This document shows, in pieces, positions 2,483 to 63,577 of a stretch of DNA of 64,000 nucleotides. The stretch is taken from positions 500,362 through 564,361 of the forward strand of contig OZ242281.1 of assembly GCA_965207365.1 (NCBI GenBank), read 5' to 3'. A program made the translations under genes and the position numbers. The notes under the pieces are model-generated. The model saw nothing but the letters and a program-made list of their open reading frames with translations, was not told where the DNA came from and did no database searches. The stretch is from Dehalococcoidia bacterium (lineage in GTDB: Bacteria > Chloroflexota > Dehalococcoidia > Bin125). Positions within the stretch are counted from its first letter, which is position 1; every line of letters begins with the position of its first letter.

Positions 2483-2574
2483 CGCCGCCTCTTCACAGAC
2501 ACGTCAGAAGCCGTTCCAGACGCGCCGCAGGCTCAGTTTAGATGGTCAGTTCGGCTGGACGAACTAACTGCGTT

Positions 2575-2715
2575 GCGCTCGAGACCTCCCCCGTTGGGGG
2601 ATGCGCCCCGAAGGGGCGGAGGGGGCCCGCCGGAGACTCCGTTCAGCGCCCCACGAGGGCCCCCTCAGTCGCTCCGCGACAGCTCCCCCATTGGGGGAGC
2701 TCTTGGATGCCGCTC
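2575..2715. repeat. GC-rich multi-hairpin intergenic repeat (family B)
   Basis: Nested short palindromes ctcccccgttggggga, gcgccccgaaggggcg, gagggggcc..ggccccctc and ctcccccattgggggag. A related unit occurs at 4365-4460. Confidence 0.5.
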
Positions 2716-2740
2716 AGCCCAACGCTCTAGACTCACCCAC

Positions 2741-3793
2741 ATGACCACCAAGACCCACACTCTCACCGACGAACTCTCCGCGATCGACTGGTGCTACGAG
2801 CAGGGCTGGACCGACGGCCTTCCGGTCGTCCCGCCTGCCCGTGAGCGAGTTGAACGTTTCCTCATCGCCGCCGGACGCCCTCCTGAGGAAATCGTCGCTC
2901 GGCATCCTGCCACCGGACGCGAATGCAGCGTCCAATCGGCCGCTGTCAATGCGGTCATGGCGGGCTGCCTGCCGCAATACTTCCCAACCGTGCTGGCTGC
3001 GCTCGAGGGTCTGAATGAAGACGCCTACAACTTCCACGGTTCGACCGCCAGCACCGGAGGCTCAGCGCCCGTGGTGATCATCTCCGGAGATATCCGCGAC
3101 GAAATCGGGATGAACGCCAGTGTCAACGTGTTCGGTCCTGGAAACCGCGCCAACGCGACCATCGGACGGGCGATGCGCCTGGTGATCATGAACATCTTCC
3201 AGATGATTCCTGGCATCTCCGATCGCTCGACGACCGGCTGGCCCGGAAAGTACGGCTGTTGCATCGCCGAGAACATCCTCAATAGCCCCTGGGAGCCGCT
3301 GCACGTGTCGCTCGATTTCCCACCCGAGGTCTCGACCGCCACCGTCTTCGCCGCCTCCGGCTTCTACAACGTCGAGAATCACTACACCAGCGACCCCGAA
3401 CTCCTGCTCGACACCTTCGCCGACGCCATGGCCTCGCTGGGCGCACTGACCGATGGACAGTCGCTGGTCGTGATGTCGCCGGAGCACGCGCAGATCGCGG
3501 CCTCGAACGGGATGTCCAAACAGGACGTGCAGGCATACCTCTTCGAGCACGCCAGCCGTGATCCCGAAGAAATGCTGAGCAAGGGCAAATGGCCCGCCGG
3601 GCGCCCAGGCGACGGACTCGCCGAAGGCGAGCGTGGCAATGGCGCGTTTCGCCGAGGTCGCACCCCCGACGACATCCTGCTCGTCGTCGCTGGCGGCGAG
3701 GCTGGCGGACACTCGGCCTTCCTGCCCTCGTGGAGTCGCGGACGCAACTCCATCTATCAGACCAAGGCGATCGGCGTCTGTCTCGATTGCTGA
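2741..3793 (+). CDS. hypothetical protein (about 350 aa), probably co-transcribed with the downstream UGSC selenoprotein
   Basis: The long ORF 2093..3793 has an R-rich, non-protein-like N-terminus. The start was chosen at ATG 2741 (MTTKTHTL...) just after the family-B repeat. A 37-bp gap with GGAGG separates it from the next gene. No family was recognised. Confidence 0.55.
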   Translation: MTTKTHTLTDELSAIDWCYEQGWTDGLPVVPPARERVERFLIAAGRPPEEIVARHPATGRECSVQSAAVNAVMAGCLPQYFPTVLAALEGLNEDAYNFHGSTASTGGSAPVVIISGDIRDEIGMNASVNVFGPGNRANATIGRAMRLVIMNIFQMIPGISDRSTTGWPGKYGCCIAENILNSPWEPLHVSLDFPPEVSTATVFAASGFYNVENHYTSDPELLLDTFADAMASLGALTDGQSLVVMSPEHAQIAASNGMSKQDVQAYLFEHASRDPEEMLSKGKWPAGRPGDGLAEGERGNGAFRRGRTPDDILLVVAGGEAGGHSAFLPSWSRGRNSIYQTKAIGVCLDC

Positions 3794-9636: not shown

Positions 9637-10374
9637 ATGCATCTCCTGTATCTCGATGAATCAGGGTCTACTGACGCAAGTCACTTTGTTGTAGCTGGAT
9701 TCATCGTCAACTGGCGGGGCGTCGTGCCTCTCAAGCTGTCGGTGGAGAACATTGTCTCAAATCGGCTCCCCAATGCTGCGGCTATGGAGCTTCATGCCGG
9801 TCACATGCGTGTGGGAAGACGAAGCTGGTCTCGGATTCCACGAGATATCCGACATCAAATCACCGAGGACATAGTGAGACTGATTGTGGGGCAGTCCGGT
9901 GCTGACGAAAATCCCGTGACGTTGGTCGTCGTCGTCGCAGATCAATCCTCCGATTCCTCCTCAGGGCTATACGATCGTTCTTACAGGGCACTGTTTGGAA
10001 TCTGCGAATCCCTCATCCAGGCAGGCCGGAGTGAATCGCCAATCTTGGCCATTGCCGACAAGACGCGCCAAGAACCACTGATTCAAGCGCTGGTGAATCC
10101 AGCCCTCAGCGACCTGACGGTCGACAGTTCGTCGCGAGCGCCGTATTCCTCCTTACTGGAACCGCCACTATTCATCGACAGCCGCATGACCCGCCTTGTG
10201 CAACTCGCCGATTTTGCAGCTCACTGGCTTTACCGAGCTTACGAACACCACGACAACTCAATACTCGACCAGATTCTTCCCGCCTTTGATCGCAGCGGAG
10301 GCAACATGGTTAGTTTGGTTCACCTCACAGACCGAAGTGATTGCTCCTGCCCCGCCTGCGTCTCCCGACGCTGA
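9637..10374 (+). CDS. DUF3800 domain protein
   Basis: Starts MHLLYLDESGS..., the characteristic DUF3800 opening. Local GC is visibly lower than the flanks (9500-10400). Confidence 0.55.
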   Translation: MHLLYLDESGSTDASHFVVAGFIVNWRGVVPLKLSVENIVSNRLPNAAAMELHAGHMRVGRRSWSRIPRDIRHQITEDIVRLIVGQSGADENPVTLVVVVADQSSDSSSGLYDRSYRALFGICESLIQAGRSESPILAIADKTRQEPLIQALVNPALSDLTVDSSSRAPYSSLLEPPLFIDSRMTRLVQLADFAAHWLYRAYEHHDNSILDQILPAFDRSGGNMVSLVHLTDRSDCSCPACVSRR

Positions 10375-10394
10375 CTACGCCCTAGACTCGCCGC

Positions 10395-11573
10395 ATGACC
10401 AACCAACCCGACCGCAGTGCGCTGCGAAATCTCCAGGACAAGACGGCCATCGTCGGCGTCGGCACGACCGAGTTCGGCTCGATCTACCGCGACCTCGACC
10501 CCGAACGCTCAGCCTACGAACTCGGGCTGATCGCCTTTCGTGAGGCCTTGAAAGACGCCGGTCTGAGGCGCACCGACGTCGACGGGGTGATCGTCTCTCG
10601 ACTGCCCCACTACGGTCGGATGTGTGAGATGATCGGCCTGCGTCATCCTCGTTTCGTCAACGTGCTGCCGGGCGAAGGCAGGCAATCCGGCATCGCCTTG
10701 CAGTATGCGGCGCTGGCCGTGGCCAACGGCATGGCCGACGTAGTCGCCTGCATCTACGGCAACAACGGACGCTCGGCCGGCGCGCGATACGGCGGCGAGA
10801 ATCGCGGTATCTCTACCCAGGCCATGTTCGAAGCGCCCTACGGCATGACCTCGCCTGGCGCGGTCACCTCAATGATGTTCCGCCGCCACCAGTACCGCTA
10901 CGGCACCACGACTGAGCCGCTCGGCCACCTCGCCATCTCCAACCGGGCCAACGCAGCGCTCAATCCGAATGCCGTCATGCAGCGCCCGATCACGATGGAC
11001 GACTACCACGGCGCCCGCTACATCGCCGAGCCGCTTTGCCTGTTCGACTACTGCCTGATCAACGATGGCGGCGTTTGTTTCATCGTGACTTCCGCCGAGC
11101 GTGCCCGCGACCTCAAGCACACGCCGGTCCTCATCCATGCCACGTCACAGGCGTCGGACATCACACCCGTGTATGTAGCCGACGACTTCTGGCACGAGCC
11201 GATGTCGCAGATCGCCGACGATCTCTTTACACACTCAGATGTCCAACGCGACGACCTCGCCTTCGCCCAGCTCTACGACAACTTCACGCCCACGATGCTG
11301 TTCACCCTCGAAGGCATGGGCTTCTGCGAGCCCGGCGAAGGCGGTGACTGGATCACGCCCGAACGCATCGGACTACGTGGTGAACTGCCGCTCAACACCG
11401 GTGGCGGGCATACCAGCGAGTCATACATGCAGGGCTGGGCGCTACATGTCGAGGCGGTCAGGCAACTGCGTCAAGAATGCGGTGACCGCCAGGTCAACGA
11501 GGCACAGTACGGCCTGTATGCCTGCGCCGCTCCACTGGCCACGGGGCACATCCTGAAGCGAGACAACTCATGA
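10395..11573 (+). CDS. thiolase-like protein (SCP-x / lipid-transfer-protein type, thiolase fold)
   Basis: 392-aa thiolase-like sequence (AIVGVGTTEFG..., NTGGGHTSESYMQGW). It overlaps a DUF35 OB-fold partner gene by 4 bp. Confidence 0.8.
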   Translation: MTNQPDRSALRNLQDKTAIVGVGTTEFGSIYRDLDPERSAYELGLIAFREALKDAGLRRTDVDGVIVSRLPHYGRMCEMIGLRHPRFVNVLPGEGRQSGIALQYAALAVANGMADVVACIYGNNGRSAGARYGGENRGISTQAMFEAPYGMTSPGAVTSMMFRRHQYRYGTTTEPLGHLAISNRANAALNPNAVMQRPITMDDYHGARYIAEPLCLFDYCLINDGGVCFIVTSAERARDLKHTPVLIHATSQASDITPVYVADDFWHEPMSQIADDLFTHSDVQRDDLAFAQLYDNFTPTMLFTLEGMGFCEPGEGGDWITPERIGLRGELPLNTGGGHTSESYMQGWALHVEAVRQLRQECGDRQVNEAQYGLYACAAPLATGHILKRDNS

Positions 11574-12007
11574 CGACAGAATCGCAATCTGCGGAACTCA
11601 GCTATGAAAAGCCGCTGCCACCGGCCCTTGAACTGACCAAACCGTTCTGGGACGGCTGCCGCGAAGGCATTCTGCAAATCCAGTTCTGCAACATTTGCGA
11701 TCTCCCCTGGTTCCCGCCGGCCGAAGCCTGCCCCCGATGCCTACAGGACGACTGGGAATGGCGGCCGATCTCGGGGCATGGAACAGTCTGGTCCTGGATC
11801 CGCATGTGGCAGAAATACTTCCCCGGCTGGGAACCCGACGAGTACCCCTACACGGTCGCCCTGATCAAACTCGAAGAGGGTCCCTACATGTACTCAACTC
11901 TCGTCGACATCGAGGACCAAGACGTCAGCTGCGACCTCAACGTCGAAGTAGATTTCCGCAAAGTCAGCGATGAAATCACGCTGCCGGTGTTTCGACCGTC
12001 GCGCTGA
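11570..12007 (+). CDS. Zn-ribbon/OB-fold DUF35 protein (partner of the thiolase-like protein)
   Basis: 145 aa with CxxC...CxxC (CNICD...CPRC) followed by an OB-fold-like region. It shows the classical pairing with an SCP-x thiolase. Confidence 0.8.
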   Translation: MTTESQSAELSYEKPLPPALELTKPFWDGCREGILQIQFCNICDLPWFPPAEACPRCLQDDWEWRPISGHGTVWSWIRMWQKYFPGWEPDEYPYTVALIKLEEGPYMYSTLVDIEDQDVSCDLNVEVDFRKVSDEITLPVFRPSR

Positions 12008-12027
12008 ATGCCGAACACAAGACTTCC

Positions 12028-12558
12028 ATGAGCAGAGGAGCCGAAGCCCACGTCCGAACGGATTCTGAACGCTCTGTCGACGCTCGTGACTTCCTACTTG
12101 ATGAGGCGCACCATGCAATAGATGCTCAGATGCGCTTTCTTTCGTCGCAAGATGTGCGCGTTGTTGCAACGTTCACCATCAGCCTGTTGCTCGTCTCTGC
12201 AACGGGGATCGTTGGCGATATTCGCCTATCGGGTGGGCTGGTTTCAGTCCTCACATTGTCGGCGTTGGCGGTCTCAGTCGTAGTCTGGCTTTGCTGTTGG
12301 GCGTCCTATTACACGAGGAAAGTTGCGTTTAGCGTCGAAATCGACATCCTGGCCCGCAGCTACCGAGATGCCAGCACCGACGAAATGCAGGACGCCTCGT
12401 TGGAGGCCCTTGTCGCGGGATTTGAACAGAACAGCGAAACAATCCCTTCGCAACGAAAGTGGCTGCAATACGCGATAGTCGGACTGGGTATCCAATTGGC
12501 GCTTCTTGCGGCGACAACCATTGCCGGTGCACCAACTGGAGCGGCCTTGGGGTCCTGA
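12028..12558 (+). CDS. hypothetical 3-TM membrane protein (low GC), paralogous to 15227..15743
   Basis: ORF with an N-terminal amphipathic helix, two TM helices, a charged helix and a third TM. GC is lower than in neighbours. Confidence 0.4.
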   Translation: MSRGAEAHVRTDSERSVDARDFLLDEAHHAIDAQMRFLSSQDVRVVATFTISLLLVSATGIVGDIRLSGGLVSVLTLSALAVSVVVWLCCWASYYTRKVAFSVEIDILARSYRDASTDEMQDASLEALVAGFEQNSETIPSQRKWLQYAIVGLGIQLALLAATTIAGAPTGAALGS

Positions 12559-29185: not shown

Positions 29186-29247
29186 GCACCAACCAACCTC
29201 TCGCAGAACAACCAAACTCCAACTCACAGATTAGGAGTTCCATACAC

Positions 29248-31755
29248 GTGGCCACTGCATCTACAGCAGACAACACCATCATCGACTTCATCTCAGGCCA
29301 ACCAGTCCGAGCAACTCCCGAAGAGCTTCATGCAGTCCAAGTTTTCTCCAGATCCCTTTTTCACGATTACAAGTATCCCAAGGAGAACATTCACACACGG
29401 CCACAGTGGCGAGTAAAGGCTCGCCCCTCTGATACCAAGAAGGAATATCCAGTTGACATTGCAGTCTTCTCTGATCACAATCACACTGACGACACTTCAC
29501 TCATTCTCGTTGAATGCAAGAAACCCAACCGGCATGATGGACGTAGCCAGCTCGAAGACTACTTACGCTTCTCTCGCGCACGACTTGGAGTCTGGTTCAA
29601 CGGCGAAGAAAAACTCTTCCTCAAGAAGACGGAGCACGACGGTGCCGTTTACTTTGAGGAGATTCCAAACATCCCCCGCTACGGCGAACGCCTCGAAGAC
29701 ATCGGCCTCTACCGCCGCATGGACCTTGAACCCACTCACAATCTGAAAAGCGTCTTCCGCACGATAAGAAACTACCTTGCGGCGAATGCTAAAGGCATCA
29801 CACGCGATGAGGTCTTCGCCCAACAAATCATAAATCTCATCTTCTGCAAGATATACGGCGAACGCTTCACACGACCTACCGACATGGTTCGCTTCAGGGC
29901 GGGGATTGATGAACCTCCACATTCGGTCCGGCAACGAATCCAAGCCCTCTTTGTTGAGGTAAAGAACCAATACAACGACGTGCTGACCCAAGAAGACGAC
30001 CTTCTGCTAGACGACACCTCCCTTGCCTATGCTGTAGGCGAGATGCACCTCTTCTCGCTGATCGATTCCAAACGGGACGCAATCGCGGAAGCCTTCGAGG
30101 TCTTCATCGGGCCGTCGCTGAAGGGTGGGCAGGGCCAATTCTTCACCCCGAGAAATGTCGTCAAACTCCTTGTCGACATGATCGACGTTTCACCCACAGA
30201 CAAAATCATCGATCCGGCTTGCGGTTCAGGTGGATTTCTCGTTGAATCGCTACGCGAGGTATGGGCAAAAATAGATCAACAGGGAGACGACCTCAACTGG
30301 CCAGAACAGGAGATTTTTTCTGAAAGACAACAAGCCGCCATCAAGAACTTTCGAGGGATAGACAAGGACGATTTCCTCGCCAAAGTTGCAAAAGCCTACA
30401 TGGCCATCATCGGTGACGGGCGAGGCGGCGTGTTTTGTGAAAACAGTCTGGAGAGCCACGAAGACTGGCACGCCACTACACGAGAGCAAGTTCAACTAGG
30501 CACGTTCGACGTGGTATTGACCAATCCACCCTACGGAAAGAAACTCAAAATCGACGACCAGTCCACTCTTGGCCCATATGCGTTGGGTCACAAGTGGACC
30601 AAGACAAAAGAGACCGGTGCCTACGAAAAGAAGGACAAACTCCGGGATGCACAGTCTCCCCAGATTCTCTTCATCGAGAGGTGCCTCGCCCTCCTAAAGG
30701 AAGGAGGGCGACTTGGCATAATCGCTCCTGAATCCATGATGTGCAATCCCTCTCACAGATACATCATTCAATATCTCAAATCGGTCGCACGTATCGTCGC
30801 CGTCGTATCTTTCCCTGAAGAGTTGTTTCAGCCGTTCACACATGCTAAGACTTGTGGCGTTATAGTAGAGAAAACACCTTCTGCTGTAGACGAACCCCAT
30901 TCAATCTTTATGGCCATTGCCAAATGGTGCGGGCATGATTCCCGTGGCCACGCGATTCCGCACGACGACATTCCGCTCATTGCTGCGAGGTTTGAGGATT
31001 ACAAGTCAGGCGAGATTCTCGATTATGACCATTTCGGTTTCCTGATTACAGATGACCAGATTGTCGATGACATCTATCTGCCCAAATACTACAATCCTGA
31101 GATGGACGCTAAGATTGATCAGCTCAGGATGACTCACGATGTCCTTACGCTGGGCGAACTAGTGGATGATGGCGTAATCTCGATTGGTACCGGGCATGAA
31201 GTAGGCAAACTCGCGTATGGCACTGGTCCGATCCCGTTTATACGAACTTCGGATATTGCGAACTGGGAGATTAAACTGGACCCCAAGCAAGCAGTAAGTG
31301 TTGACATTTATGAAGGCCTCAAGGATCGCCAAGACGTTCAGGCAGGGGACATTCTTATGGTGCGAGATGGCACCTATCTTGTAGGAACATGCGCGATGAT
31401 TCAGGAAGCTGACACTGGCATTGTTTATCAAAGTCACATTTACAAGATTCGCTCAGAAGATCATCAAAAGATGAATCCGAGTCTGCTCTTGGCAGCGCTG
31501 TCTAGCCCCATAGTCAGGGAACAGATCTACGCAAAGAGGTTTACTCAAGACATTATCGATACGCTCGGAGGCCGGATATCCGAGCTGCAACTCCCAATTC
31601 CGAAGGATAAAGCAACGCGTGACCAAGTCATTGACAATGTGACACGAGCCTTAGAGCTGAAGGCGAGCGCTCGCTCTCTTGCGCGAACTGCCGCACTCAC
31701 GATTGCGCCGCATGACGGTGGTCTCGACCCTGACTTCCTGACTCTCTCAGGCTGA
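29248..31755 (+). CDS. MmeI-like type IIG/IIL restriction-modification enzyme (fused PD-ExK nuclease, N6-adenine methyltransferase and target-recognition domain)
   Basis: N-terminal VDIAVF...ILVECKKPN (PD-ExK, HsdR_N-like). Central IIDPACGSGGFLV (SAM motif I) and NPPYG (motif IV). The C-terminus has an HsdS-like TRD. GTG start at 29248 with AGGAG at -10. GC is markedly lower than in the surroundings. Confidence 0.7.
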   Translation: MATASTADNTIIDFISGQPVRATPEELHAVQVFSRSLFHDYKYPKENIHTRPQWRVKARPSDTKKEYPVDIAVFSDHNHTDDTSLILVECKKPNRHDGRSQLEDYLRFSRARLGVWFNGEEKLFLKKTEHDGAVYFEEIPNIPRYGERLEDIGLYRRMDLEPTHNLKSVFRTIRNYLAANAKGITRDEVFAQQIINLIFCKIYGERFTRPTDMVRFRAGIDEPPHSVRQRIQALFVEVKNQYNDVLTQEDDLLLDDTSLAYAVGEMHLFSLIDSKRDAIAEAFEVFIGPSLKGGQGQFFTPRNVVKLLVDMIDVSPTDKIIDPACGSGGFLVESLREVWAKIDQQGDDLNWPEQEIFSERQQAAIKNFRGIDKDDFLAKVAKAYMAIIGDGRGGVFCENSLESHEDWHATTREQVQLGTFDVVLTNPPYGKKLKIDDQSTLGPYALGHKWTKTKETGAYEKKDKLRDAQSPQILFIERCLALLKEGGRLGIIAPESMMCNPSHRYIIQYLKSVARIVAVVSFPEELFQPFTHAKTCGVIVEKTPSAVDEPHSIFMAIAKWCGHDSRGHAIPHDDIPLIAARFEDYKSGEILDYDHFGFLITDDQIVDDIYLPKYYNPEMDAKIDQLRMTHDVLTLGELVDDGVISIGTGHEVGKLAYGTGPIPFIRTSDIANWEIKLDPKQAVSVDIYEGLKDRQDVQAGDILMVRDGTYLVGTCAMIQEADTGIVYQSHIYKIRSEDHQKMNPSLLLAALSSPIVREQIYAKRFTQDIIDTLGGRISELQLPIPKDKATRDQVIDNVTRALELKASARSLARTAALTIAPHDGGLDPDFLTLSG

Positions 31756-31867
31756 CTTCATTTGCCAATGGCCAACGCCATCAGTTCGACCGCTGCTTCC
31801 CTCAAGCTGCAAAAGTTCGATACCCTGGCACTGCGGTCCGACCAAGTGCGATCGAGGCAGTGTCGGC

Positions 31868-32722: not shown

Positions 32723-32755
32723 GCGAGAAAACCCTATGTCAACCGGTCTCTCTCC

Positions 32756-33005
32756 TCGCTCCCCCTTGAAGAGACTGATGCACAACTCCCCTTCTCCCCC
32801 CTTACGGGGGAGATGCCCCCTGCCTACGCAGGGGCAGGCTCCGGCAGAGGGGGGTCCCTGCCTGTTGGCCTATCTGGTCGTCGCCAGCCGACCCCCCCTC
32901 TGTCACGCTGTGACATCTCCCCCCGCAAGGGGGGGAGAGGGGAATCAGAGGATTTGCATCAGGCTCTTGAAGGGGGATTTGCTTAAGGCTGAAGGGGTCC
33001 TGCCC
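32756..33005. repeat. MITE-like palindromic repeat (family A) plus a short sub-unit
   Basis: gactgatgcacaactcccc...ctccccccttacgggggagatg...cagaggggggtc...gaccccccctctg...catctccccccgcaagggggggagagggg, followed by cttgaagggggatttgc..aaggctgaaggggtcc. Confidence 0.7.
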
Positions 33006-33154
33006 CCCTCAACGCATCGTTCGATCGTCAGTGATCCCTTGATCTGGTTTCGCAGATCAACGCGCGCTGGCCTAATCGGCCCAGACCGACCTTGCCGCAC
33101 TTCGCCAAGACCCAATGGCAAAAGCGGCAGGGCATTCAGGACCTTCCCGGCGTC

Positions 33155-34614: not shown

Positions 34615-34724
34615 CTTCCGCTTGCCATTGCGATGAACATCAAGCTACTACCCGGGAACCCGGGCATGATCACTTGGATGCCGAAAATCCATGCGAGGCG
34701 TATCTGTTTTCCACACTCCCACTT

Positions 34725-34960
34725 GCAGGGACTGATGCATAACTCCCCTTCTCCCCCCTTGCGGGGGAGATGCCGAAGGCAGAGGGGGGTTCCCTGCCTG
34801 TTGGCCCTATCTGGTCGTCGCCAGCCGCCCCCCCTCTGTCACTCTGTGACATCTCCCCCCGCAAGGGGGGGAGAGGGGAATCGGAGGATATGCATCAGTC
34901 TCTTGCAGGGGGAGCTGCCGAAGGCTGAGGGGGTCCTGCTCCCCACCGGCAAGGCCGTTT
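34725..34960. repeat. MITE-like palindromic repeat (family A, full copy with terminal gactgatgcataactcc / ggatatgcatcagtct) plus short sub-unit
   Basis: Near-identical to 61007-61215 and 32756-33005. Confidence 0.75.
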
Positions 34961-37442: not shown

Positions 37443-37592
37443 CCAATCCCCTCTCCCCCCCTTGCGGGGGGAGATGCCGAAGGCAGAGGGGGGTTCCCTG
37501 CCTGTGGCCCTATCTGGTCATCACCCGCCGACCCCCCTCTGTCACTCCGTGACATCTCCCCCCGCAAGGGGGGGAGAGGGGATTCGGGAGCC
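37443..37592. repeat. MITE-like palindromic repeat (family A, core only)
   Basis: ctctcccccccttgcggggggagatgccgaaggcagagggggg...cccctctgtcactccgtgacatctccccccgcaagggggggagaggg. Confidence 0.7.
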
Positions 37593-44171: not shown

Positions 44172-44332
44172 CACTCCCCCTCTCCCCCCCTTGCGGGGGG
44201 AGATGCCGAAGGCAGAGGGGGGGGGTCCGCTGTTCGGGAGCCATATCTGGTCATTGTCAACCGACCCCCCCCCTCTGTCACTCCGTGACATCTCCCCCCG
44301 CAAGGGGGGGAGAGGGGAATCGGGAGTTTTTC
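44172..44332. repeat. MITE-like palindromic repeat (family A core)
   Basis: ctctccccccccttgcggggggagatgccgaaggcagaggggggggg...ccccccccctctgtcactccgtgacatctccccccgcaagggggggagagggg. Confidence 0.7.
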
Positions 44333-47832: not shown

Positions 47833-48922
47833 TATCCCCTCGGAGTGGACGGCCGTATCAGGCCAGCGCCTGCTCGAGGCAGCGGGGATATTCCTGCTGT
47901 TCGTCGGAGTTCTGCTGCTCGGTTCAAAATATGTACCGGGCCGCAAGGCGGTAGGCAGGCCTGATCCTGACGGCGTGACGCGCACTTACAACCTCAACGG
48001 GCTGGCGCTGTTCTTGTTCGTCATGCTGCTGGCCGTGCTCGGCGATGTCTTCGACGTCATCTCACTCTCGGTGCTGCACACACACTTTGCCGAGCTGTTC
48101 ATCGTGGCCAACGTCTTCGCCTGTCTACTCTCAGCCGGGTTGTATTGGCAAGGGTCGCGTCTCCGAAGCGAATCGCCCGGTCTGCTGCGCGGGTTCTTTT
48201 TCGGCCGCCAGCTCAATCCATCCTGGCTTGGGGTCGACCTGAAGCTGTTTAGCTACCGACCATCCCTCATTTCGCTGGCATTGTTCAATGTGTCGTTTGC
48301 CGCAGTCCAGTACGACACGCACGGTGAGTTCACGCTACAGATGCTCTTGTACCAGGCGTTCACGTTCATATACGTCCTGAACTACTTTCAGTTTGAGCAT
48401 GGCATGATCTTCACCTGGGACATCGTCGCTGAGCGCTTTGGCTGGATGTTGATCTGGGGAGACTATGTCCTGGTGCCGTTCTTCTATTGCCTGGCAGGAT
48501 GGTGGTTGTTGGATACCACGGACTCGATACCGATCTGGGCGGCGCTATTGATCTGCTTGCTGTTTGTCGTGGGATTCTGCATGTTCCGCGGCGCCAACGA
48601 ACAGAAGCACCGGTTCAAGCAGAATGCGGAGAGTTCTATCTGGGGACGGCCGGCCGAGACACTTGACGGGCGACTGCTGGTGTCCGGCTTCTGGGGTGTA
48701 GGCCGACATCTGAATTACTCCGGCGAGATTTGCGTGTACGTTGCATTTGCGCTGACGACCGCGTTCGCGTCCTGGATCCCGTTTGCATTGCCGGTCTGGC
48801 TGACGGCGCTGTTGTGGCATCGTGCGTGGCGCGACGACCGTCGCTGCCGAACCAAGTACGGCGAACTCTGGGAGCGCTACACGCAGCGGGTACCATACGC
48901 ATTGATCCCGCGCGTCTACTAG
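47825..48922 (+). CDS. sterol reductase, ERG4/ERG24 family (C-14 reductase candidate)
   Basis: C-terminal LLVSGFWGVGRHLNYSGEI...RAWRDDRRCRTKYGELWERYTQRVPYALIPRVY is the family hallmark. It overlaps the upstream gene by 8 bp. Confidence 0.8.
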   Translation: MPDIPSEWTAVSGQRLLEAAGIFLLFVGVLLLGSKYVPGRKAVGRPDPDGVTRTYNLNGLALFLFVMLLAVLGDVFDVISLSVLHTHFAELFIVANVFACLLSAGLYWQGSRLRSESPGLLRGFFFGRQLNPSWLGVDLKLFSYRPSLISLALFNVSFAAVQYDTHGEFTLQMLLYQAFTFIYVLNYFQFEHGMIFTWDIVAERFGWMLIWGDYVLVPFFYCLAGWWLLDTTDSIPIWAALLICLLFVVGFCMFRGANEQKHRFKQNAESSIWGRPAETLDGRLLVSGFWGVGRHLNYSGEICVYVAFALTTAFASWIPFALPVWLTALLWHRAWRDDRRCRTKYGELWERYTQRVPYALIPRVY

Positions 48923-48954
48923 AGTCGGCGCTTCAGGGTCTGTTGAGGTCAGAG

Positions 48955-50343
48955 ATGGTTCAACTGCGCAGCGCTCCGACGGCTCCACAAGATGAACGGG
49001 CACTTCCGGAGCTGAGTGGCGGGGCGCCGCTGATTGGTCACCTGCGGGACTTTCAACGCGACCCGGTGGCCATGATCAGCCGCGGTTGGGATCAGTTGGG
49101 CGAACTGTTCCGATTCCGACTTGGTCCCCGCCAGTTTGTGCTCTTCTGCGGACCCGAGGCGCATGACGCCTTCTTCAGCGCACCCGAGGACCAACTGAAC
49201 GCCAAGGAGGTCTATCAGTTCACCGTTCCAATCTTCGGTCGTGGCGTGGCCTACGATGTCGCGCCCTCGATCATGGACGAGCAGCTCGGCTTTCTCTATC
49301 CAGCACTCCGGGAATCCGCGATGCAAGAGTTCGCCCGGATCATGTACGAGGAAACGGCGCTCCTCGCCGATTCCCTCGGCGAGGAAGGCGTGCTCGATCT
49401 GCCGGAAGCGATGAACGAACTGACCGTGAATATCGCCAGTCGCAGTCTGATCGGACAGGAAGTCCGCGATCAGGTGGACGCGGGCTTCGCCGATGCCTAT
49501 CACGACCTGCAGAAAGGCATCAACACCCTGGGTTTCTTTCTGCCCCGGCTTCCCACTCCCGCGCATCGCAGCCGCGACCGGGCACGTAAACAGGTAGCCG
49601 AAATCTTTGGCCGGATTATGTCGGCCCGTCGTCGTGCCGATGCACGCCCTGACGACTTCATGCAAACGCTCATGGACGCGACCTACAGCGATGGCCGCTC
49701 GTTGAGTGATGACGAGATCACGGGAATCCTCTTGACCGTGTTGTTCGCCGGTCAGCACACCAGCGCAGTGCTCGCCACCTGGACCGGCCTGGAACTCGTC
49801 AAAGCTTCCTCGTACGCGGAACGTGTCAGAGATGAAACGGCCGCCGTGTACGGCGATACCGGGAACATGAGCCTTGAGGGCCTGAGACAACAGGTGACCA
49901 TGGAGCATGCCGTACGCGAGGGGGAACGTCTCCACCCGCCGCTGATCATCCTGATCCGCAAGGTGCTCAAGCCGATGCGCTACGGAGACTACGTGGTGCC
50001 TGAAGGTGCGCTAGCGATGGTCTCGCCGGCGGTTTCTCACCGGTTGCCGCATCTGTTCGCCAACCCGGACCAATTCGACCCGGACCGCTACGCTGAACCC
50101 GCTCGCGAGGACAAACAGCATCCCTACGCCTTGATCGGCTTCGGCGGAGGCAAGCATCGCTGTATGGGCAAGCACTTTGCCGAGATGCAGGTCAAAGCCA
50201 TCTGGACCGTGCTGCTCGATCGCTTCGACTTCAGTCCCGACACTGAGTTTCCGACCCCCAACTACGGCAGTTGGGTCACTGGTCCCGTGACACCCTGCCG
50301 CATCCGATACCGGCGCCGCTCGTCAGGCAGAGTCTTCCGGTGA
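48955..50343 (+). CDS. cyp51: cytochrome P450 CYP51 (sterol 14-alpha-demethylase)
   Basis: FGGGKHRCMG heme-binding loop and the AGQHTS helix-I signature typical of CYP51. The start was chosen at ATG 48955. Confidence 0.8.
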   Translation: MVQLRSAPTAPQDERALPELSGGAPLIGHLRDFQRDPVAMISRGWDQLGELFRFRLGPRQFVLFCGPEAHDAFFSAPEDQLNAKEVYQFTVPIFGRGVAYDVAPSIMDEQLGFLYPALRESAMQEFARIMYEETALLADSLGEEGVLDLPEAMNELTVNIASRSLIGQEVRDQVDAGFADAYHDLQKGINTLGFFLPRLPTPAHRSRDRARKQVAEIFGRIMSARRRADARPDDFMQTLMDATYSDGRSLSDDEITGILLTVLFAGQHTSAVLATWTGLELVKASSYAERVRDETAAVYGDTGNMSLEGLRQQVTMEHAVREGERLHPPLIILIRKVLKPMRYGDYVVPEGALAMVSPAVSHRLPHLFANPDQFDPDRYAEPAREDKQHPYALIGFGGGKHRCMGKHFAEMQVKAIWTVLLDRFDFSPDTEFPTPNYGSWVTGPVTPCRIRYRRRSSGRVFR

Positions 50344-53300
50344 CTGAGACCGGCTTGAGCCGATACGACGTGGCGATCGTCGGCGCCGGACCTGTCGGCA
50401 GCCTGTGCGCGATTGCTCACGCACGCAAGGGTTATCGAGTCGCGCTCTTTGAGGCGAATCCGTCCGCGTCTGAACGACTGGCCGGTGAGTGGCTGCATCC
50501 TCCAGCCGCACGAATCCTGCGTGATTTCGGGATATCGGTTCATGCCGAAGCTCGGGACGGCTCGGGCAAAGGCTTCGCGGTGTTCCCGGATGACGGCCAC
50601 GAGCCAATCGTGCTTCCCTACTCGGACGGATCGCGCGGGTTGGTGTGTGAACACGCGACGCTGGTCACACGCCTACGCGAGACGGCGGACGCGGAGCACG
50701 GTGTCGACCTCAGACTTCACGCCCGCGTACACACCGTCGAAGACGAGCGGATGACGTACTCGCAGGACGGCGCAAGCCACACCGTTGTCGCAGAGCGGAT
50801 CGTCGGCGCCGACGGCCGATCGTCTGTGGTCCGTCGTTCCTTGGGCCTGGCAACAAGATCGAAAACTGCTTCGCGCATGATTGCGCTCACGTTGGAGGGC
50901 GCCCGGCTGCCGCTGGAGGGCTACGGGCACGTCGTGTGTGGCGCTCCGGGCCCGATGCTGATCTATCGCCTGAGCGACGATCTCGTCCGGGCCGTCATTG
51001 ACATCCCACTGGACCATGCGCCTCAAGACTGGAAGGGCCTCCTGTCGGACTCGTATGCCCGCTGGTTGCCGGAACCGCTCCGGGCGCCGTTCGTCGAGGC
51101 GTGGTCGGAAGACCGTGTACACGCCGCCGCCAATGCCGTCAGCCCACGGGTCACCTACGGCACCTCTCGTCGAGTGCTGATTGGCGATGCGGCGGGACAC
51201 TACCACCCCTTGACCGCCACGGGACTCACGCTGGGCTTTGGCGACGCCATCGCACTGGCGGAGAGCGAACAGTTCGAAGACTTTCGGAACGAGCGATTCG
51301 AGGCGACGAGAGTTCCGGAACTGCTGGCGATGGGACTCTACGAGGCGTTTGCCGATCAGCGGGCCGAAGCGGCCGTGCTGCGGCAGGCGATGTTTGGTCG
51401 CTGGAGGACCAGTGCAGCGGTACGTAACCACACCGTGCGGCTGCTTGCCTGTGAAGATACCTCGGTGGCCAGGCTGAGTCGGGAGTTCTCGATGACGGTG
51501 GCCTGGGCGCTAAAGGCCGCTGTCCCGAGATCGCTCGACCCTCTAGCCTGGAGCCGCTTCGGCGAGGTCGCTCGCGGACTGAGCAACCGGATGGGCTGGC
51601 TCCTGCGAGGCGCCTGGAATCTGCACAGCGTCAGACGATCCGGCAAAGCCGGACCCGAACGGCCCACCGAGACGCTGTCCCGCGCATTTCTGACCTCCAT
51701 GCCATCGGCGCCGTCCATGCCATCGGCGCCAACAGGGCGGCCACGAGACGGCGACCTGCGTCAGGCCGATGCCCTGTCGCCCGATGCCGTGCCACCTGAT
51801 GCTGGTCCGGCGATCCAGGACGCCGCCGCGCGTCTGTTGGACCTCCAGGCCGAGGATGGCAGTTGGGAAGGCGAGATGGTCTGGTGCCCAATGATCACGG
51901 CGCAGTGGGTACTGCTGCAACACATCATTGGACGGCCCATCGATCCCAAGCGACGCGAGCAGATCCTGCGTTACTTCGAGCAGTCCCGGTTGCCGGAGGG
52001 ATCGTGGGGCTTGCACGACCACTCACATCCCTATGTGTTTGTCACCGCCCTGGTCTACGTGGCGTCACGACTGCTCAGCGTTGAGCGGGACGATCCGCTG
52101 GTCGAGCCGGCGCGACGATTCCTCCAGCAGGAAGGCACTCTGAGCATCCCAAGCTGGGGCAAGTTCTGGCTGGCGCTGCTCAATCTCTACGAGTGGAGTG
52201 GAATCCATCCCGTGCTCCCCGAGCTCTGGAGCCTACCCCGCCAACTGCCATTGCATCCCTCGAACTGGTATTGCCACACTCGGCTGATCTACATGGCCAT
52301 GGCCGCGATCTACCCGCGTCGGTTCCAGACGCCTGTCACACCACTGATCGAGTCTTTGCGGGAAGAATTGTTCCCCCAGGGGTTTGAAACCATCGACTTT
52401 CCAGCGCAACGCAACCACCTGCGCCAGGCCGACCTCTTCGCCAAGCCGACAGCATTGCTGAGAGCGGGGTACCGGGGCGCGGAGCTGCTGGAGCGATTCC
52501 ATAGCAAAGGCCTACGCGCCAGGTCGATGGATGAGCTGATCGGTCAGATCAAGTGGGAACTGAACACGACTGATCACACGAGCATCTCTCCGGTCAGCGG
52601 CCTGCTCAACATCCTCGCCTTGTGGCTGCACGATCCCGACGACGGCGACTGCAACCGAGCGCTGGAGCAGGTCAACCAATGGTTCTGGGAAGACGAGGAG
52701 CATGGCGCCCGCATGACCGGCGCCAGAAGCGCCTCGTGGGACACCGGTTTCGCGCTGCAGGCGCTGTCGACGGCGCCTCAGATTGGCGACTTGCCCGACG
52801 CGTTACAGCGCGGGACTACTTACCTGCGCCAGCAGCAGGTCGGTACCAGCGTTCCGGGCTATCGCGAGGCGTATCGGAACGACCCGAAGGGCGGTTGGTG
52901 TTTCGCGGCGCAATGGCACGGTTGGCCGGTGACGGACTGCACGGCGGAAGCCGTGCTGGGGATTCTGGCAGCCGATCCCACATCGATCAGCGCGACGGCA
53001 CTCCGCGATGCGATTGGCTTCATGCTGCGTGGCCAGAATCGCGATGGCGGATTCGGCAGCTACGAGGCGCAGCGCTCCAGGATCGAACTCGAGCGAGTCA
53101 ATCCCGCCGAGATGTTCGGCGAATCAATGACCGAGCACTCATTTGTCGAATGCACGGCATCCTGCCTGGCCGCACTCGTCGCTTGCCGGACGCACTTCCC
53201 GGAGATCATCGATCGGGACACGGAACGCGCCATCTTGCAAGCGGACGCCTGCCTCCGCCGGACTCAGCACAGCGACGGCTCCTGGCGCGGAGTGTGGGGT

Positions 53301-53729
53301 GTGCAGTTCATCTACGGCACGTTCTTCGGGATCAAAGGCCTGGTCGCCAATGGAGCGCAGCCGAATGATCCGGCGCTCAACGCGGCATGCAGATGGCTAT
53401 TGGATCGCCAAAAGGACGACGGAGGATGGGGCGAGCATCACAGCGGTTGCATGACCGGCCAGTACGTCCAACACGAGGAGAGTCAGGTGATCCAGACCGC
53501 CTGGGCGTTAATCGCCTTGCTGGAGGCAGGCGCGTCGGACTGGCAGGCCATTGCGCGTGGCGCTCAGTTCCTGATCGACCGGCAGTGCCCGGATGGGACC
53601 TGGCCCAAACAAGACATGGCCGGGGTCTTTTTCCGCACCGCACTGCTGGATTACGTCCTCTACCGCCAGTACTTCCCGTTGCACGCCCTCGGCTTGTACG
53701 AAGAGCGGCGCAAGACCCGCAGCGTCTGA
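50340..53729 (+). CDS. fused squalene monooxygenase (epoxidase) - oxidosqualene cyclase
   Basis: The N-half has a DVAIVGAGPVGS FAD fold and GDAAGHYHPLTATGLTLG (SQMO motif). A linker carries a tandem MPSAPS repeat. The C-half has the VTDCTAEAV (DCTAE) catalytic motif and QW repeats (GGWGEH, DGSWRGVWG). GTG start at 50340 overlaps the CYP51 stop. Confidence 0.85.
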   Translation: MTETGLSRYDVAIVGAGPVGSLCAIAHARKGYRVALFEANPSASERLAGEWLHPPAARILRDFGISVHAEARDGSGKGFAVFPDDGHEPIVLPYSDGSRGLVCEHATLVTRLRETADAEHGVDLRLHARVHTVEDERMTYSQDGASHTVVAERIVGADGRSSVVRRSLGLATRSKTASRMIALTLEGARLPLEGYGHVVCGAPGPMLIYRLSDDLVRAVIDIPLDHAPQDWKGLLSDSYARWLPEPLRAPFVEAWSEDRVHAAANAVSPRVTYGTSRRVLIGDAAGHYHPLTATGLTLGFGDAIALAESEQFEDFRNERFEATRVPELLAMGLYEAFADQRAEAAVLRQAMFGRWRTSAAVRNHTVRLLACEDTSVARLSREFSMTVAWALKAAVPRSLDPLAWSRFGEVARGLSNRMGWLLRGAWNLHSVRRSGKAGPERPTETLSRAFLTSMPSAPSMPSAPTGRPRDGDLRQADALSPDAVPPDAGPAIQDAAARLLDLQAEDGSWEGEMVWCPMITAQWVLLQHIIGRPIDPKRREQILRYFEQSRLPEGSWGLHDHSHPYVFVTALVYVASRLLSVERDDPLVEPARRFLQQEGTLSIPSWGKFWLALLNLYEWSGIHPVLPELWSLPRQLPLHPSNWYCHTRLIYMAMAAIYPRRFQTPVTPLIESLREELFPQGFETIDFPAQRNHLRQADLFAKPTALLRAGYRGAELLERFHSKGLRARSMDELIGQIKWELNTTDHTSISPVSGLLNILALWLHDPDDGDCNRALEQVNQWFWEDEEHGARMTGARSASWDTGFALQALSTAPQIGDLPDALQRGTTYLRQQQVGTSVPGYREAYRNDPKGGWCFAAQWHGWPVTDCTAEAVLGILAADPTSISATALRDAIGFMLRGQNRDGGFGSYEAQRSRIELERVNPAEMFGESMTEHSFVECTASCLAALVACRTHFPEIIDRDTERAILQADACLRRTQHSDGSWRGVWGVQFIYGTFFGIKGLVANGAQPNDPALNAACRWLLDRQKDDGGWGEHHSGCMTGQYVQHEESQVIQTAWALIALLEAGASDWQAIARGAQFLIDRQCPDGTWPKQDMAGVFFRTALLDYVLYRQYFPLHALGLYEERRKTRSV

Positions 53730-54791: not shown

Positions 54792-55141
54792 GGCCTCTCT
54801 CCTACGGCGCGGCCTGGAGCGCCATCGAAACCAGGAAAATGCCAGTTCCGTCGAGATTTGCGCGCCACCTCAAACTCCCTCATTGCTTTACAAAGACCCT
54901 GGAGTCGACTGGATCGCAACCATGTTAGGCCCTGTGCGCATCGCGTCGACGTTCTGGTAGACCAGCGATGGCAAGCATCGCGACCTCCCCGAGACAACCG
55001 ATCAGGCACGTTCCGCGCAGATGTTGCTCACCAGAAGCTAGGGTCTGGTCACATGGGGAAGCGAACATCCGTGTGGGTGGTTGAGGGCATTGTCGATGGG
55101 GAGTGGGACCCCCACAGCCGTCGGCAGCTCCCCCTGTTAGA

Positions 55142-55340
55142 GAACGATGCATAACTCCCCTTCTCCCCCTTGCGGGGGAGATGCCGAAGGCAGAGGGGGG
55201 TGCCCTGTTTGCTCGCCTATCTGGTCAGCATCGGCCGCCCCCCCTTCTGTCACTCCGTGACATCTCCCCCCGCAGGGGGGGGAGAGGAGAATTGCGGGTT
55301 ATGCATCGGTCTCTGTTAGGGGGAGCGGGGAATGCTGGCG
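55142..55340. repeat. MITE-like palindromic repeat (family A, full copy with gatgcataactcc / ggttatgcatcggtct termini)
   Basis: Highly similar to 34725-34925 and 61007-61205. Confidence 0.75.
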
Positions 55341-57542: not shown

Positions 57543-57745
57543 GTTGTGCATCAGTCTCTTACGGCGGGAGCTGCCGAATCCCTGTCCCCTTTCTCCCCCC
57601 CTTGCGGGGGGAGATGCCGAAGGCAGAGGGGGGGCCGGCTTGGGCACGAGAGGTGAGATCCGGTGTTGGGAGGTTGCGCGACGTACCCCCCCCTCTGTCG
57701 CAAGGCGACATCTCCCCCCGCAGGGGGGAGAGGGTATTCGGGAGT
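57543..57745. repeat. MITE-like palindromic repeat (family A variant)
   Basis: gtgcatcagtctcttacggcgggagctgccg...ctcccccccttgcggggggagatgccgaaggcagaggggggg...ccccccctctgtcgcaaggcgacatctccccccgcaggggggagaggg. Confidence 0.65.
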
Positions 57746-57896
57746 TTTGCAAAGGCATCCCTCCGAGCGGGAATTGTAGGCGAGCCCTACGTTTGTTCCA
57801 GACAACCATTTGCACACGACCCGGCCAACGCGCCGCCGTCGGTTGCAACGGTTTCGCCGCGGGCCTAGCCTTGCCCTCGAACACGGGAGGGTGTGG

Positions 57897-60951: not shown

Positions 60952-61006
60952 GCAACCGCCCGACTCGAGCAGCGGCCATATGACCAGGCGCACCTGGATT
61001 CCCCGC

Positions 61007-63549: not shown

Positions 63550-63577
63550 CCGGTCGGCCGCAACACCGCCCGCGAAT

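What the first reader, a model, noticed from the sequence alone, without database searches (positions are those of the whole stretch)
29248..31755. Low-GC island encoding a solitary MmeI-like type IIG restriction-modification enzyme
A single 836-aa polypeptide has three parts in order:
- an N-terminal PD-ExK nuclease core (YPVDIAVF...LILVECKKPN);
- an N6-adenine DNA methyltransferase (IIDPACGSGGFLV; NPPYG);
- a C-terminal HsdS-like target-recognition domain.

This domain order is that of the MmeI/type IIL family, which cut at a distance and hemimethylate, needing no separate M or S subunit. GC content (about 48%) is far below the 65-67% of the flanks, and the gene sits between a TauD gene and a DUF1295 gene with no partner RM genes. 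Together these indicate horizontal acquisition. Such enzymes have programmable specificity through the TRD and are of biotechnological interest.
Basis: partly seen in the sequence, partly recalled or inferred. Interest (0 to 1): 0.6.

Follow-up and report, generated by a model that had tools for sequence, protein, structure and literature searches.

The report
Solitary single-chain restriction-modification gene, horizontally acquired
A single 835-residue gene that joins a DNA-cutting domain, an adenine methyltransferase and one DNA-recognition domain was dropped between two metabolic genes of this bacterium. It is a real but fairly ordinary mobile restriction-modification enzyme, related to BcgI, BsaXI and HaeIV rather than to MmeI.

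Summary
A GTG-started ORF at 29248-31755 (+) encodes 835 aa in this order: an N-terminal PD-(D/E)xK domain (Pfam HSDR_N_2), a gamma-class N6-adenine methyltransferase, one HsdS-like recognition domain (TRD), and a terminal helix.

Gene GC is 50.9% against 62.3% for the rest of the window (z = -7.8). A strain with 95-96% identical flanks has TauD and DUF1295 directly adjacent. So window 29188-31853 (2,666 bp, one gene) is an acquired segment that replaced a 104-bp spacer.

The gene is a single-chain type IIG R-M-S enzyme, but not of the MmeI/type IIL family:
- The only MmeI Pfam model that matches covers just the AdoMet-binding motif.
- Close relatives (65% identity) occur as two genes: an RM gene plus an S gene with two TRDs, the BcgI layout.

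This gene is therefore an RM subunit fused to half an S subunit. I infer that it acts like HaeIV, as a homodimer on a symmetric bipartite site, methylating both strands and cutting on both sides.

The family is widespread (311 species-representative genomes, bacteria and archaea), 60-77% identical including the TRD, and usually solitary and low in GC. Sources that name members call them "N-6 DNA methylase" or type I M protein. It is a new member of a known kind, of moderate interest.

The parts
29188..31853 (.). Acquired DNA segment of 2,666 bp, holding one gene plus 60 bp upstream and 98 bp downstream. It replaces a 104-bp TauD-DUF1295 spacer found in a closely related strain.
   Evidence: blastn of L089 against the window. 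Synteny at 95.6% identity ends at window 29187 and resumes at 31854 at 94.4% identity. L089 7883-7986 has no counterpart in the window. Gene maps of L089 and L090 show TauD and DUF1295 adjacent. The fine GC profile drops at about 29200 and recovers at about 31800.
29233..29237 (+). Shine-Dalgarno-like AGGAG, 10 nt before the GTG start
   Evidence: Read directly from the sequence.
29248..31755 (+). CDS for the 835-aa single-chain R~M~S protein (GTG start, TGA stop)
   Evidence: An identical protein is already in public databases (P0001, 100% identity).
29248..29697 (+). N-terminal PD-(D/E)xK nuclease domain (aa 1-150)
29320..29325 (+). E25-E26 on helix 1, the candidate first acidic residue of the active site
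   Evidence: E25 is invariant and E26 at least 90% conserved across relatives down to 24% identity. The catalytic role is inferred.
29455..29520 (+). D70 ... E89-C-K91, the (P)D...ExK catalytic motif
   Evidence: Invariant in 57 close homologues. D70 and E89 are invariant and K91 at least 90% conserved in diverse relatives. In one search the same columns also hold D90/E105/K107 of BsaXI, whose alanine mutants lose cleavage (PMC11997821). That pairing rests on a weak alignment (domain score -4 bits).
29725..30117 (+). Helical N-terminal part of the HsdM-like methyltransferase module (about aa 160-290)
   Evidence: Secondary structure of the AF2 model. The phmmer alignment to BsaXI RM starts at aa 166.
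30118..31077 (+). Gamma-class N6-adenine methyltransferase catalytic domain. Motif X is GQFFTPR at 30133-30153, motif I is IIDPACGSGGFLV at 30205-30243, and motif IV is NPPYG at 30523-30537.
31078..31608 (+). Single HsdS-like target-recognition domain (aa 611-787). It is preceded by the invariant PKYYNP motif (aa 612-617), which also opens each half of the S subunit of the one split relative inspected.
31609..31704 (+). C-terminal 32-residue helix (aa 788-819), homologous to the helices that follow each TRD in two-TRD S subunits. Predicted dimerisation helix.
   Evidence: AF2 helix 788-819. BLAST alignments to the S proteins of L065 and L069 run through aa 813-822 of the query and reach the S C-terminus. 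Dimerisation is inferred from established HsdS architecture (PMC3874165).

Best explanation
The gene encodes a stand-alone, single-chain type IIG restriction-modification enzyme of the BcgI/BsaXI lineage. It is an RM subunit (PD-(D/E)xK nuclease plus HsdM-like gamma N6-adenine methyltransferase) fused to half of an S subunit (one TRD plus one coiled-coil helix).

Shown here:
- the domain architecture;
- an intact nuclease triad and intact MTase motifs under strong conservation;
- homology to split RM + S(two-TRD) systems;
- solitary occurrence in most hosts;
- recent horizontal acquisition as a one-gene, 2.67-kb segment.

Inferred:
- Two chains pair through their C-terminal helices, giving a (R~M~TRD)2 particle equivalent to the (RM)2S of BcgI and BsaXI.
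- The particle reads a symmetric bipartite site and uses AdoMet to methylate one adenine in each half-site, so both strands are modified.

This is the organisation written '2 R~gammaM~[GAY]' for HaeIV. No separate M, S or R gene would be needed.
For: Architecture.

Nuclease domain.
- Across N-domains diverged to 24-34% identity, the only invariant columns are E25, L37, D70 and E89. K91 and E26 are at least 90% conserved. This is the E...D...ExK signature.
- The N-domain is as conserved as the MTase (0.68 against 0.66 mean identity to the query).

MTase. Motifs X, I and IV are invariant.

Lineage.
- Best PDB sequence hit is BsaXI RM, 1.3e-23.
- Foldseek top three hits are BsaXI RM chains, E about 1e-25.

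Fusion origin.
- 23 of 80 related loci carry an RM ORF of about 600 aa followed on the same strand by an S ORF of about 490 aa.
- In the Paenibacillus locus L065 the RM protein is 65% identical to query aa 1-568. Both halves of its S protein are 46-48% identical to query aa 597-813, including the trailing helix.

Solitary state. No flanking gene recurs among the fused loci beyond small groups of related genomes. Contexts vary.

Acquisition.
- Empty site in L089 and L090.
- GC and GC3 deviation.
- The family gene is lower in GC than its flanks by more than 5 points in 58 of 72 loci, and never higher by more than 5 points.

Precedent.
- HaeIV is a single chain with a symmetric site GAY N5 RTC, cuts both sides, and is a homodimer (PMC3874165 Table 4 and text; PMC4027205).
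- BplI has a 1:1 A:B ratio and a palindromic site (PMC1892151).
- A distant two-gene relative (27% identity), on Anabaena plasmid D, blocks conjugation genetically.
- In one N-less relative inspected (M~TRD, Acinetobacter plasmid pA1296_2), the gene sits behind an HTH gene and an unannotated 386-aa ORF, a layout like C-R-M operons. This would fit the N-domain supplying the R function where it is present, but that ORF has no recognisable nuclease domain, so this line is weak.
Against: - No activity, methylome or oligomeric state was measured. The recognition sequence is unknown.
- Dimerisation was not modelled, because only monomer prediction was available.
- In the sequence alignment, the column of BsaXI E73 (essential for cleavage) holds R51 in this subfamily, not an acidic residue. 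The active site is therefore a variant, or the fourth acidic residue is supplied from elsewhere (E25, E26 or D62).
- The sequence link between this N-domain and that of BsaXI is weak: the phmmer domain scores -4 bits, and a profile of the N-domain finds no PDB nuclease at significant E (best Cas4, E 0.5).
- PADLOC's best-scoring models are labelled MTase_II and MTase_I rather than REase_MTase_IIG.
- The TRD does not reach Pfam Methylase_S at E <= 1.
- Monomeric type IIG enzymes with one TRD (Eco57I, BpuSI, MmeI) show that a single TRD does not by itself prove a homodimer.
Confidence: 0.55

Rival explanations
1. It is a monomeric type IIG enzyme acting, in the manner of MmeI, Eco57I or BpuSI. 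One chain binds a continuous asymmetric site through its single TRD, methylates one strand only, and cuts on one side at a fixed distance.
Against: The MTase and TRD are closer to the HsdM/HsdS and BsaXI RM/S type than to MmeI. No MmeI model other than MmeI_Mtase matches. The closest relatives are split RM + two-TRD S systems in which each TRD-helix unit is homologous to this C-terminus, and that form works with one RM per TRD in BcgI and BsaXI. Solitary MmeI-type enzymes have highly diversified TRDs, whereas this TRD is conserved at about 70% across phyla.
Confidence: 0.2
2. It is an orphan (solitary) DNA adenine methyltransferase with its own TRD. The N-terminal PD-(D/E)xK-like domain would no longer cut DNA and would serve for DNA binding or regulation, so the gene gives epigenetic modification or protection without restriction.
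For: Sources that name the homologues call them N-6 DNA methylase or type I M protein. PADLOC's top models are MTase classes. The BsaXI E73-equivalent column is R51. Relatives without the N-domain exist. Some members are frameshifted or truncated (L048, L053, L055, L056).
Against: D70, E89 and K91 (plus E25) are the most conserved residues of the N-domain across deep divergence, which is the pattern of a catalytic site rather than a decayed one. The N-domain is as constrained as the MTase. The sporadic, low-GC, cross-phylum distribution fits a selfish or defensive RM gene rather than a housekeeping orphan MTase.
Confidence: 0.15
3. It is a fused MAD2-MAD5 component of a multi-gene methylation-associated defence system (MADS-like). 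Restriction would need ATPase or nuclease partners encoded elsewhere in the genome.
For: The best curated family is NCBIfam antiphage_MADS2, at 1e-112 and 377.6 bits over aa 7-570. The C-terminus hits MAD5. PADLOC mad2 scores 2e-44.
Against: Both scores are far below the curated cut-offs (377.6 against 720; 39.2 against 400). The acquired segment holds only this gene. Neighbours in the window and in about 55 fused loci show no recurrent partner genes. The split relatives are two-gene units without further conserved genes.
Confidence: 0.05

Closest known systems
HaeIV (type IIG/IIB, organisation '2 R~gammaM~[GAY]'; site 7/13 GAY N5 RTC 14/9)
   Same: A single polypeptide with an N-terminal nuclease, a gamma-class MTase and one TRD. 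It has no partner genes. It is proposed to act as a homodimer on a symmetric bipartite site and to cut on both sides (PMC3874165; PMC4027205).
   Different: The site, the cut positions and the dimer state of the present protein are unknown.
BsaXI and BcgI (type IIB, (RM)2S)
   Same: BsaXI RM is the closest solved structure and sequence. They share an N-terminal PD-(D/E)xK with D...ExK, an HsdM-like MTase and an HsdS-like TRD followed by a helix. Close relatives of the query keep the same two-gene RM + S(two-TRD) layout.
   Different: Here the recognition module is fused to the RM chain and has one TRD instead of two. The protein is 835 aa and ends in a TRD, where the 916-aa BsaXI RM chain carries its C-terminal 'paddle' region. 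BsaXI E73 aligns with R51. Identity to BsaXI RM is only 19-25%.
MAD2 and MAD5 of the MADS defence system (NCBIfam NF047738, NF047740)
   Same: These are the best-scoring curated models. MAD2 matches from residue 7 to 570, so it shares the N-terminal domain plus the MTase. MAD5 matches the TRD.
   Different: The scores are about half (MAD2) and about a tenth (MAD5) of the curated cut-offs. No other mad genes are present, and here the two modules are one chain.
MmeI family (type IIG/IIL)
   Same: The domain order is R-M-TRD in one chain. Both are solitary and need no separate MTase.

Membership tests
Type IIG single-chain RM enzymes (R~gammaM~S) | N-terminal PD-(D/E)xK cleavage domain with catalytic D...(D/E)xK | tested here: met
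Type IIG single-chain RM enzymes (R~gammaM~S) | Gamma-class N6-adenine MTase (motif order X, I, IV; NPPY/F) | tested here: met
   N6_Mtase scores 109 bits. GQFFTPR (aa 296-302), DPACGSGGF (aa 322-330) and NPPY (aa 426-429) occur in that order. N426, P427, P428 and G430 are invariant.
Type IIG single-chain RM enzymes (R~gammaM~S) | C-terminal target-recognition domain in the same chain | tested here: met
Type IIG single-chain RM enzymes (R~gammaM~S) | Cleavage at a fixed distance from the site, with methylation by the same protein | not testable with these tools
   Needs enzyme assays or a methylome.
MmeI family / type IIL | Full set of MmeI-specific domains (the MmeI N-terminal, helical spacer, MTase, TRD and C-terminal models of Pfam) | tested here: not met
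   At E <= 1 only MmeI_Mtase appears, and it covers profile positions 22-84 of 259 (36.7 bits). No other MmeI model is listed.
MmeI family / type IIL | MmeI is the closest solved fold | tested here: not met
MmeI family / type IIL | Modification of one strand only; cut 18-20 nt to one side | not testable with these tools
   Needs a methylome and cleavage mapping.
BcgI/BsaXI-type type IIB systems | RM subunit homologous to BcgI A or BsaXI RM | tested here: met
BcgI/BsaXI-type type IIB systems | Separate S subunit with two TRDs, (RM)2S stoichiometry | tested here: not met
   There is no S gene in the acquired segment, and one TRD is fused to the RM chain. Relatives at 65% identity do have the separate two-TRD S gene.
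BcgI/BsaXI-type type IIB systems | Double-strand cuts on both sides of a bipartite site | not testable with these tools
   Needs cleavage mapping.
HaeIV-type homodimeric single-chain type IIG (2 R~gammaM~[TRD]) | One chain with R, M and exactly one TRD, followed by an S-type dimerisation helix | tested here: met
   One TRD (aa 611-787) plus a helix at aa 788-819. Both are homologous to each TRD-helix unit of a two-TRD S subunit.
HaeIV-type homodimeric single-chain type IIG (2 R~gammaM~[TRD]) | Homodimer; symmetric bipartite recognition sequence | not testable with these tools
   No multimer prediction or biochemistry was available.
HaeIV-type homodimeric single-chain type IIG (2 R~gammaM~[TRD]) | Sequence homology to HaeIV itself | not tested
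MADS (methylation-associated defence system) | MAD2 and MAD5 equivalog scores above the curated cut-offs | tested here: not met
   MAD2 scores 377.6 against 720, and MAD5 scores 39.2 against 400. The split relative L065 scores 404.9 against 720 and 76 against 400.
MADS (methylation-associated defence system) | Multi-gene operon with the other mad genes | tested here: not met
   The acquired segment holds one gene. The neighbours are metabolic. No neighbour recurs in related loci. The rest of the genome was not available.

The most novel reading that the evidence does not exclude
The family could be a self-sufficient, selfish one-gene mobile unit. That would be a minimal RM enzyme with an essentially fixed specificity (the TRD is 60-77% conserved across bacterial and archaeal phyla) that spreads as a naked gene cassette. 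Its own bilateral double-strand cuts would help its insertion or its post-segregational maintenance. This would explain why it repeatedly sits alone, low in GC, in unrelated intergenic sites without any recombinase, repeats or tRNA. In this window it replaced a 104-bp spacer exactly.
Probability: 0.07. Interest if true: 0.7.

Novelty: new member of a known kind. Interest (0 to 1): 0.35.

Why it matters
The result turns a tempting label ('MmeI-like, programmable type IIL enzyme') into a better-founded one. The gene is an RM subunit fused to half an S subunit, of the BcgI/BsaXI lineage, with the HaeIV-type layout.

This layout has few characterised examples. Yet the family found here occurs in at least 311 species-representative genomes of bacteria and archaea, and the sources that name its members call them 'N-6 DNA methylase' or 'type I M protein'.

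A member with a determined site would add a compact (835 aa) stand-alone enzyme that probably excises its site by double cuts. Such enzymes are useful for tag-based methods such as 2b-RAD.

The strong conservation of the TRD also gives a natural series for relating TRD residues to specificity.

For this genome, the finding is a clean, dated example of single-gene horizontal acquisition, with the empty site preserved in a sister strain.

Tried and rejected
- MmeI family membership was rejected on Pfam coverage and on fold ranking.
- MADS membership was rejected on curated cut-offs and the lack of partner genes.
- I looked for hallmarks of a mobile element around the gene. There are no direct or inverted repeats flanking 29188-31853 beyond chance-level matches of 10-23 nt. 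There is no tRNA in 20000-42000. The surrounding ORFs scanned against Pfam are metabolic, with no integrase or transposase domain. Promoter and terminator scans were at background level.
- I looked for conserved non-coding flanks travelling with the gene in 80 related loci. None were found, and the best DNA identity anywhere is 70%, confined to the ORF. The donor is therefore unknown.
- A profile of the N-domain searched against PDB sequences gave only marginal hits (Cas4 E 0.5). The link to BsaXI's catalytic residues therefore rests on a weak pairwise alignment, motif logic and fold.
- The exact protein is not in the contig index, so the host organism could not be named.
- The MADS paper is not held in the library. 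The MANTIS preprint that came up concerns a different system.
- An Rfam scan of the whole window found nothing.
Full report
**1. What is there**

The window carries an ORF on the + strand from a GTG at 29248 to a TGA ending at 31755. An AGGAG lies ten bases upstream of the GTG.
- The longer reading from ATG 29050 runs through the 3' end of the TauD gene and is not used. Homologues start at the position of the GTG.
- The DNA shared with a sister strain ends at 29187, and no other canonical in-frame start lies between 29188 and 29248.
- The product is 835 residues.

**2. Composition and neighbours**

- Gene GC is 50.9%. The remainder of the window is 62.3%. Windows of the same length elsewhere give 62.3 +/- 1.5% with a minimum of 59.3%, so z = -7.8.
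- GC3 is 56% against 78-83% in the four neighbouring genes.
- Pfam confirms TauD upstream and DUF1295 downstream. A carboxyl transferase, an alpha/beta hydrolase, an SDR and an enolase-family gene lie further out.
- The other large ORFs of the window that I scanned are metabolic or unassigned.
- There is no tRNA within 10 kb and there are no flanking repeats.

**3. Proof of acquisition**

The DUF1295 protein has a 96% identical homologue on a 3.26-Mb ENA contig.
- In that contig the gene order is AFOR, two small ORFs, carboxyl transferase, TauD, DUF1295, a small ORF (weak MJ0349 hit), hydrolase, ABM, SDR, enolase-family. This is the order in the window, except that TauD and DUF1295 are adjacent.
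- A more distant genome (75% identity) shows the same TauD-DUF1295 adjacency.
- blastn places the synteny breaks at window 29187/29188 and 31853/31854, with flanks 94-96% identical. The 2,666 bp between them correspond to an unrelated 104-bp spacer in the sister strain.
- The acquired DNA thus contains exactly one gene. Its donor is unknown: the best DNA match among 80 related loci is 70%, and only within the ORF.

**4. Domain anatomy**

*Family models.*
- Pfam gives HSDR_N_2 (aa 31-143), N6_Mtase (aa 275-608), Eco57I, and a short MmeI_Mtase match limited to the AdoMet motif (profile positions 22-84 of 259).
- NCBIfam's best model is the MADS methyltransferase MAD2 (377.6 bits, cut-off 720), which covers aa 7-570. 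That family therefore shares the N-terminal domain.
- The C-terminus (aa 614-816) matches the MAD5 S subunit and a type I S subunit.
- PADLOC agrees with MTase_II, MTase_I, mad2 and Specificity_I.

*Whole-chain model.* An AlphaFold2 model built on 57 homologues has mean pLDDT 86.7 and pTM 0.80.
- The top three Foldseek PDB hits are BsaXI RM chains, at E about 1e-25.

*N-domain model.* A separate model of aa 1-160 (pLDDT 75.5) finds these best matches:
- restriction-endonuclease-fold proteins;

**5. Is the nuclease site intact?**

- In 57 homologues at 61-77% identity, E25, E26, D70, E89, C90 and K91 are invariant.
- In 19 N-domains reaching down to 24% identity, the only invariant columns are E25, L37, D70 and E89. 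E26 and K91 are at least 90% conserved. This is what a catalytic E...D...ExK site looks like.
- A weak pairwise alignment puts D70, E89 and K91 on BsaXI D90, E105 and K107. Alanine mutants at those BsaXI positions abolish cleavage (PMC11997821).
- One caveat remains. The fourth essential BsaXI residue, E73, falls in a column that holds R51 in this subfamily but E in a more distant subgroup. Either the alignment is off there, or the acidic residue comes from elsewhere (E25, E26 or D62).

**6. The family and what it reveals**

*Distribution.*
- The protein search returns at least 120 clusters at 61-77% identity over the full length. They come from Pseudomonadota, Chloroflexota, Cyanobacteria, Desulfobacterales, Bacteroidales, Treponema, Yersinia, Pseudomonas and Streptomyces.
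- A scan of one genome per species finds 311 genomes with a relative. These include archaea: Nitrosopumilus, Aenigmatarchaeota and Woesearchaeota.
- The exhaustive representative search counts 829 clusters (at 50% identity) at E <= 1e-30.
- The TRD is as conserved as the MTase (0.70 against 0.66 mean identity to the query). This is unusual for RM recognition domains and suggests one specificity, or a few related ones.

*Three architectures.*
- (a) Fused forms of about 835 aa.
- (b) RM proteins of about 600 aa followed by an S gene of about 490 aa (23 of the 80 loci).
- (c) Forms of about 650-700 aa that lack the N-domain.

*What the split forms show.*
- In the split form at L065, the RM protein is 65% identical to query aa 1-568. 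Both halves of the S protein are 46-48% identical to query aa 597-813, up to and including the helix that follows each TRD.
- The query is therefore an RM subunit fused to half an S subunit.

*Context.*
- Among the fused loci no neighbouring gene recurs, and contexts are unrelated: transposases and GmrSD, a prophage-like region, or metabolic genes. In Yersinia an HNH_2 gene and HTH genes lie nearby.
- The gene is lower in GC than its flanks by more than 5 points in 58 of 72 loci and never higher by more than 5 points. The mean difference is -9.9 points.
- Relatives also occur on plasmids and in a Helicobacter prophage.
- An N-less relative on an Acinetobacter plasmid follows an HTH gene and an unannotated 386-aa ORF, a layout like that of C-R-M operons.

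**7. Mechanism**

Established knowledge of gamma-class MTases and type IIG enzymes (Loenen et al., PMC3874165) says the following.
- S components work either singly or as inverted pairs held by antiparallel helices.
- BcgI and BsaXI are 2 RM + S1~S2.
- HaeIV is '2 R~gammaM~[GAY]': a single chain with one TRD, a symmetric site GAY N5 RTC, cuts on both sides, and a homodimer (also PMC4027205).
- BplI, with a 1:1 subunit ratio, also has a palindromic site (PMC1892151).

The present protein has one RM module per TRD and carries the S-type helix. The most economical reading is therefore a homodimer equivalent to (RM)2S. It would recognise a symmetric bipartite site, methylate an adenine in each half-site, and cut unmethylated DNA on both sides.
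- Shown: the architecture, its homology and its conservation.
- Inferred: dimerisation, site symmetry and cut geometry.
- A two-gene relative at 27% identity, on Anabaena plasmid D, blocks conjugation when present. So this broad kind of system does restrict DNA in vivo.

**8. Rivals**

| Rival | Confidence | For | Against |
|---|---|---|---|
| Monomeric MmeI/Eco57I-like action | 0.2 | One TRD; nuclease fold similar to BpuSI and DrdV | Closer kinship to HsdM/HsdS and BsaXI; split relatives |
| Orphan MTase with a non-cutting N-domain | 0.15 | Database names; the R51 column; occasional decayed copies | Conservation pattern of the catalytic residues |
| MADS-like component needing distant partners | 0.05 | Best curated model is MAD2 | Sub-threshold scores; one-gene cassette |

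**9. Comparison and novelty**

- The gene works like, and by architecture belongs with, the single-chain type IIG enzymes. Within them it belongs to the BcgI/BsaXI lineage, with the HaeIV-type layout.
- It fails the tests for the MmeI family and for MADS.
- I found no characterised member of this particular sequence family in the papers searched. REBASE could not be queried, so an already assigned specificity cannot be excluded.
- It is a new member of a known kind. The cross-phylum conservation of the TRD and the naked single-gene insertion are the points of some interest.

Noticed in passing
window 32741-33020, 34710-34944, 37447-37585, 44177-44321, 55127-55324, 57585-57751, 61000-61210, 63574-63745: A dispersed, GC-rich repeat family of about 100-260 bp contains short hairpin-forming palindromes (for example CCCCCTTACGGGGGAG). 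It occurs at eight or more places in the window on both strands, at 74-91% identity, and some copies overlap long mechanical ORFs. It looks like a REP- or MITE-like element. Rfam has no match. One copy begins about 20 bp after the DUF1295 stop, but none borders the acquired segment.
   Followed up: partly
window 48730-53729: A cytochrome P450 ORF (48730-50343) is followed by a 1,152-aa ORF (50271-53729). That ORF joins a squalene epoxidase / FAD-binding N-terminal half to squalene-hopene/oxidosqualene cyclase N and C domains. This looks like a fused epoxidase-cyclase next to a P450, and so a possible bacterial sterol-synthesis cluster.
   Followed up: no
L001 8854-9618 (Yersinia enterocolitica), next to the homologue at 10001-12490: In Yersinia the fused homologue (67% identity) has a divergently oriented 254-aa HNH_2 endonuclease gene upstream and three small HTH genes downstream. 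This neighbourhood is not seen in the other loci. It could be a second nuclease or a separate defence gene.
   Followed up: partly
L048, L053, L055, L056 (loci): In these loci the homologue is broken into a separate N-terminal ORF and a shorter main ORF. Several other loci (L060, L070) have shortened main ORFs. This suggests frameshifts or decay in some hosts, or assembly errors.
   Followed up: no
window 61582-63549 and 2093-3793: Two large ORFs (655 aa and 566 aa) have no Pfam match at E <= 1e-5. Whether they are real genes was not examined.
   Followed up: no
L091 3359-6726 (Acinetobacter baumannii plasmid pA1296_2): A relative without the nuclease domain (M~TRD, 42% identity over query aa 168-802) follows a small HTH gene and an unannotated 386-aa ORF with no Pfam or NCBIfam match. 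This may be an uncharacterised restriction endonuclease paired with this MTase lineage.
   Followed up: partly
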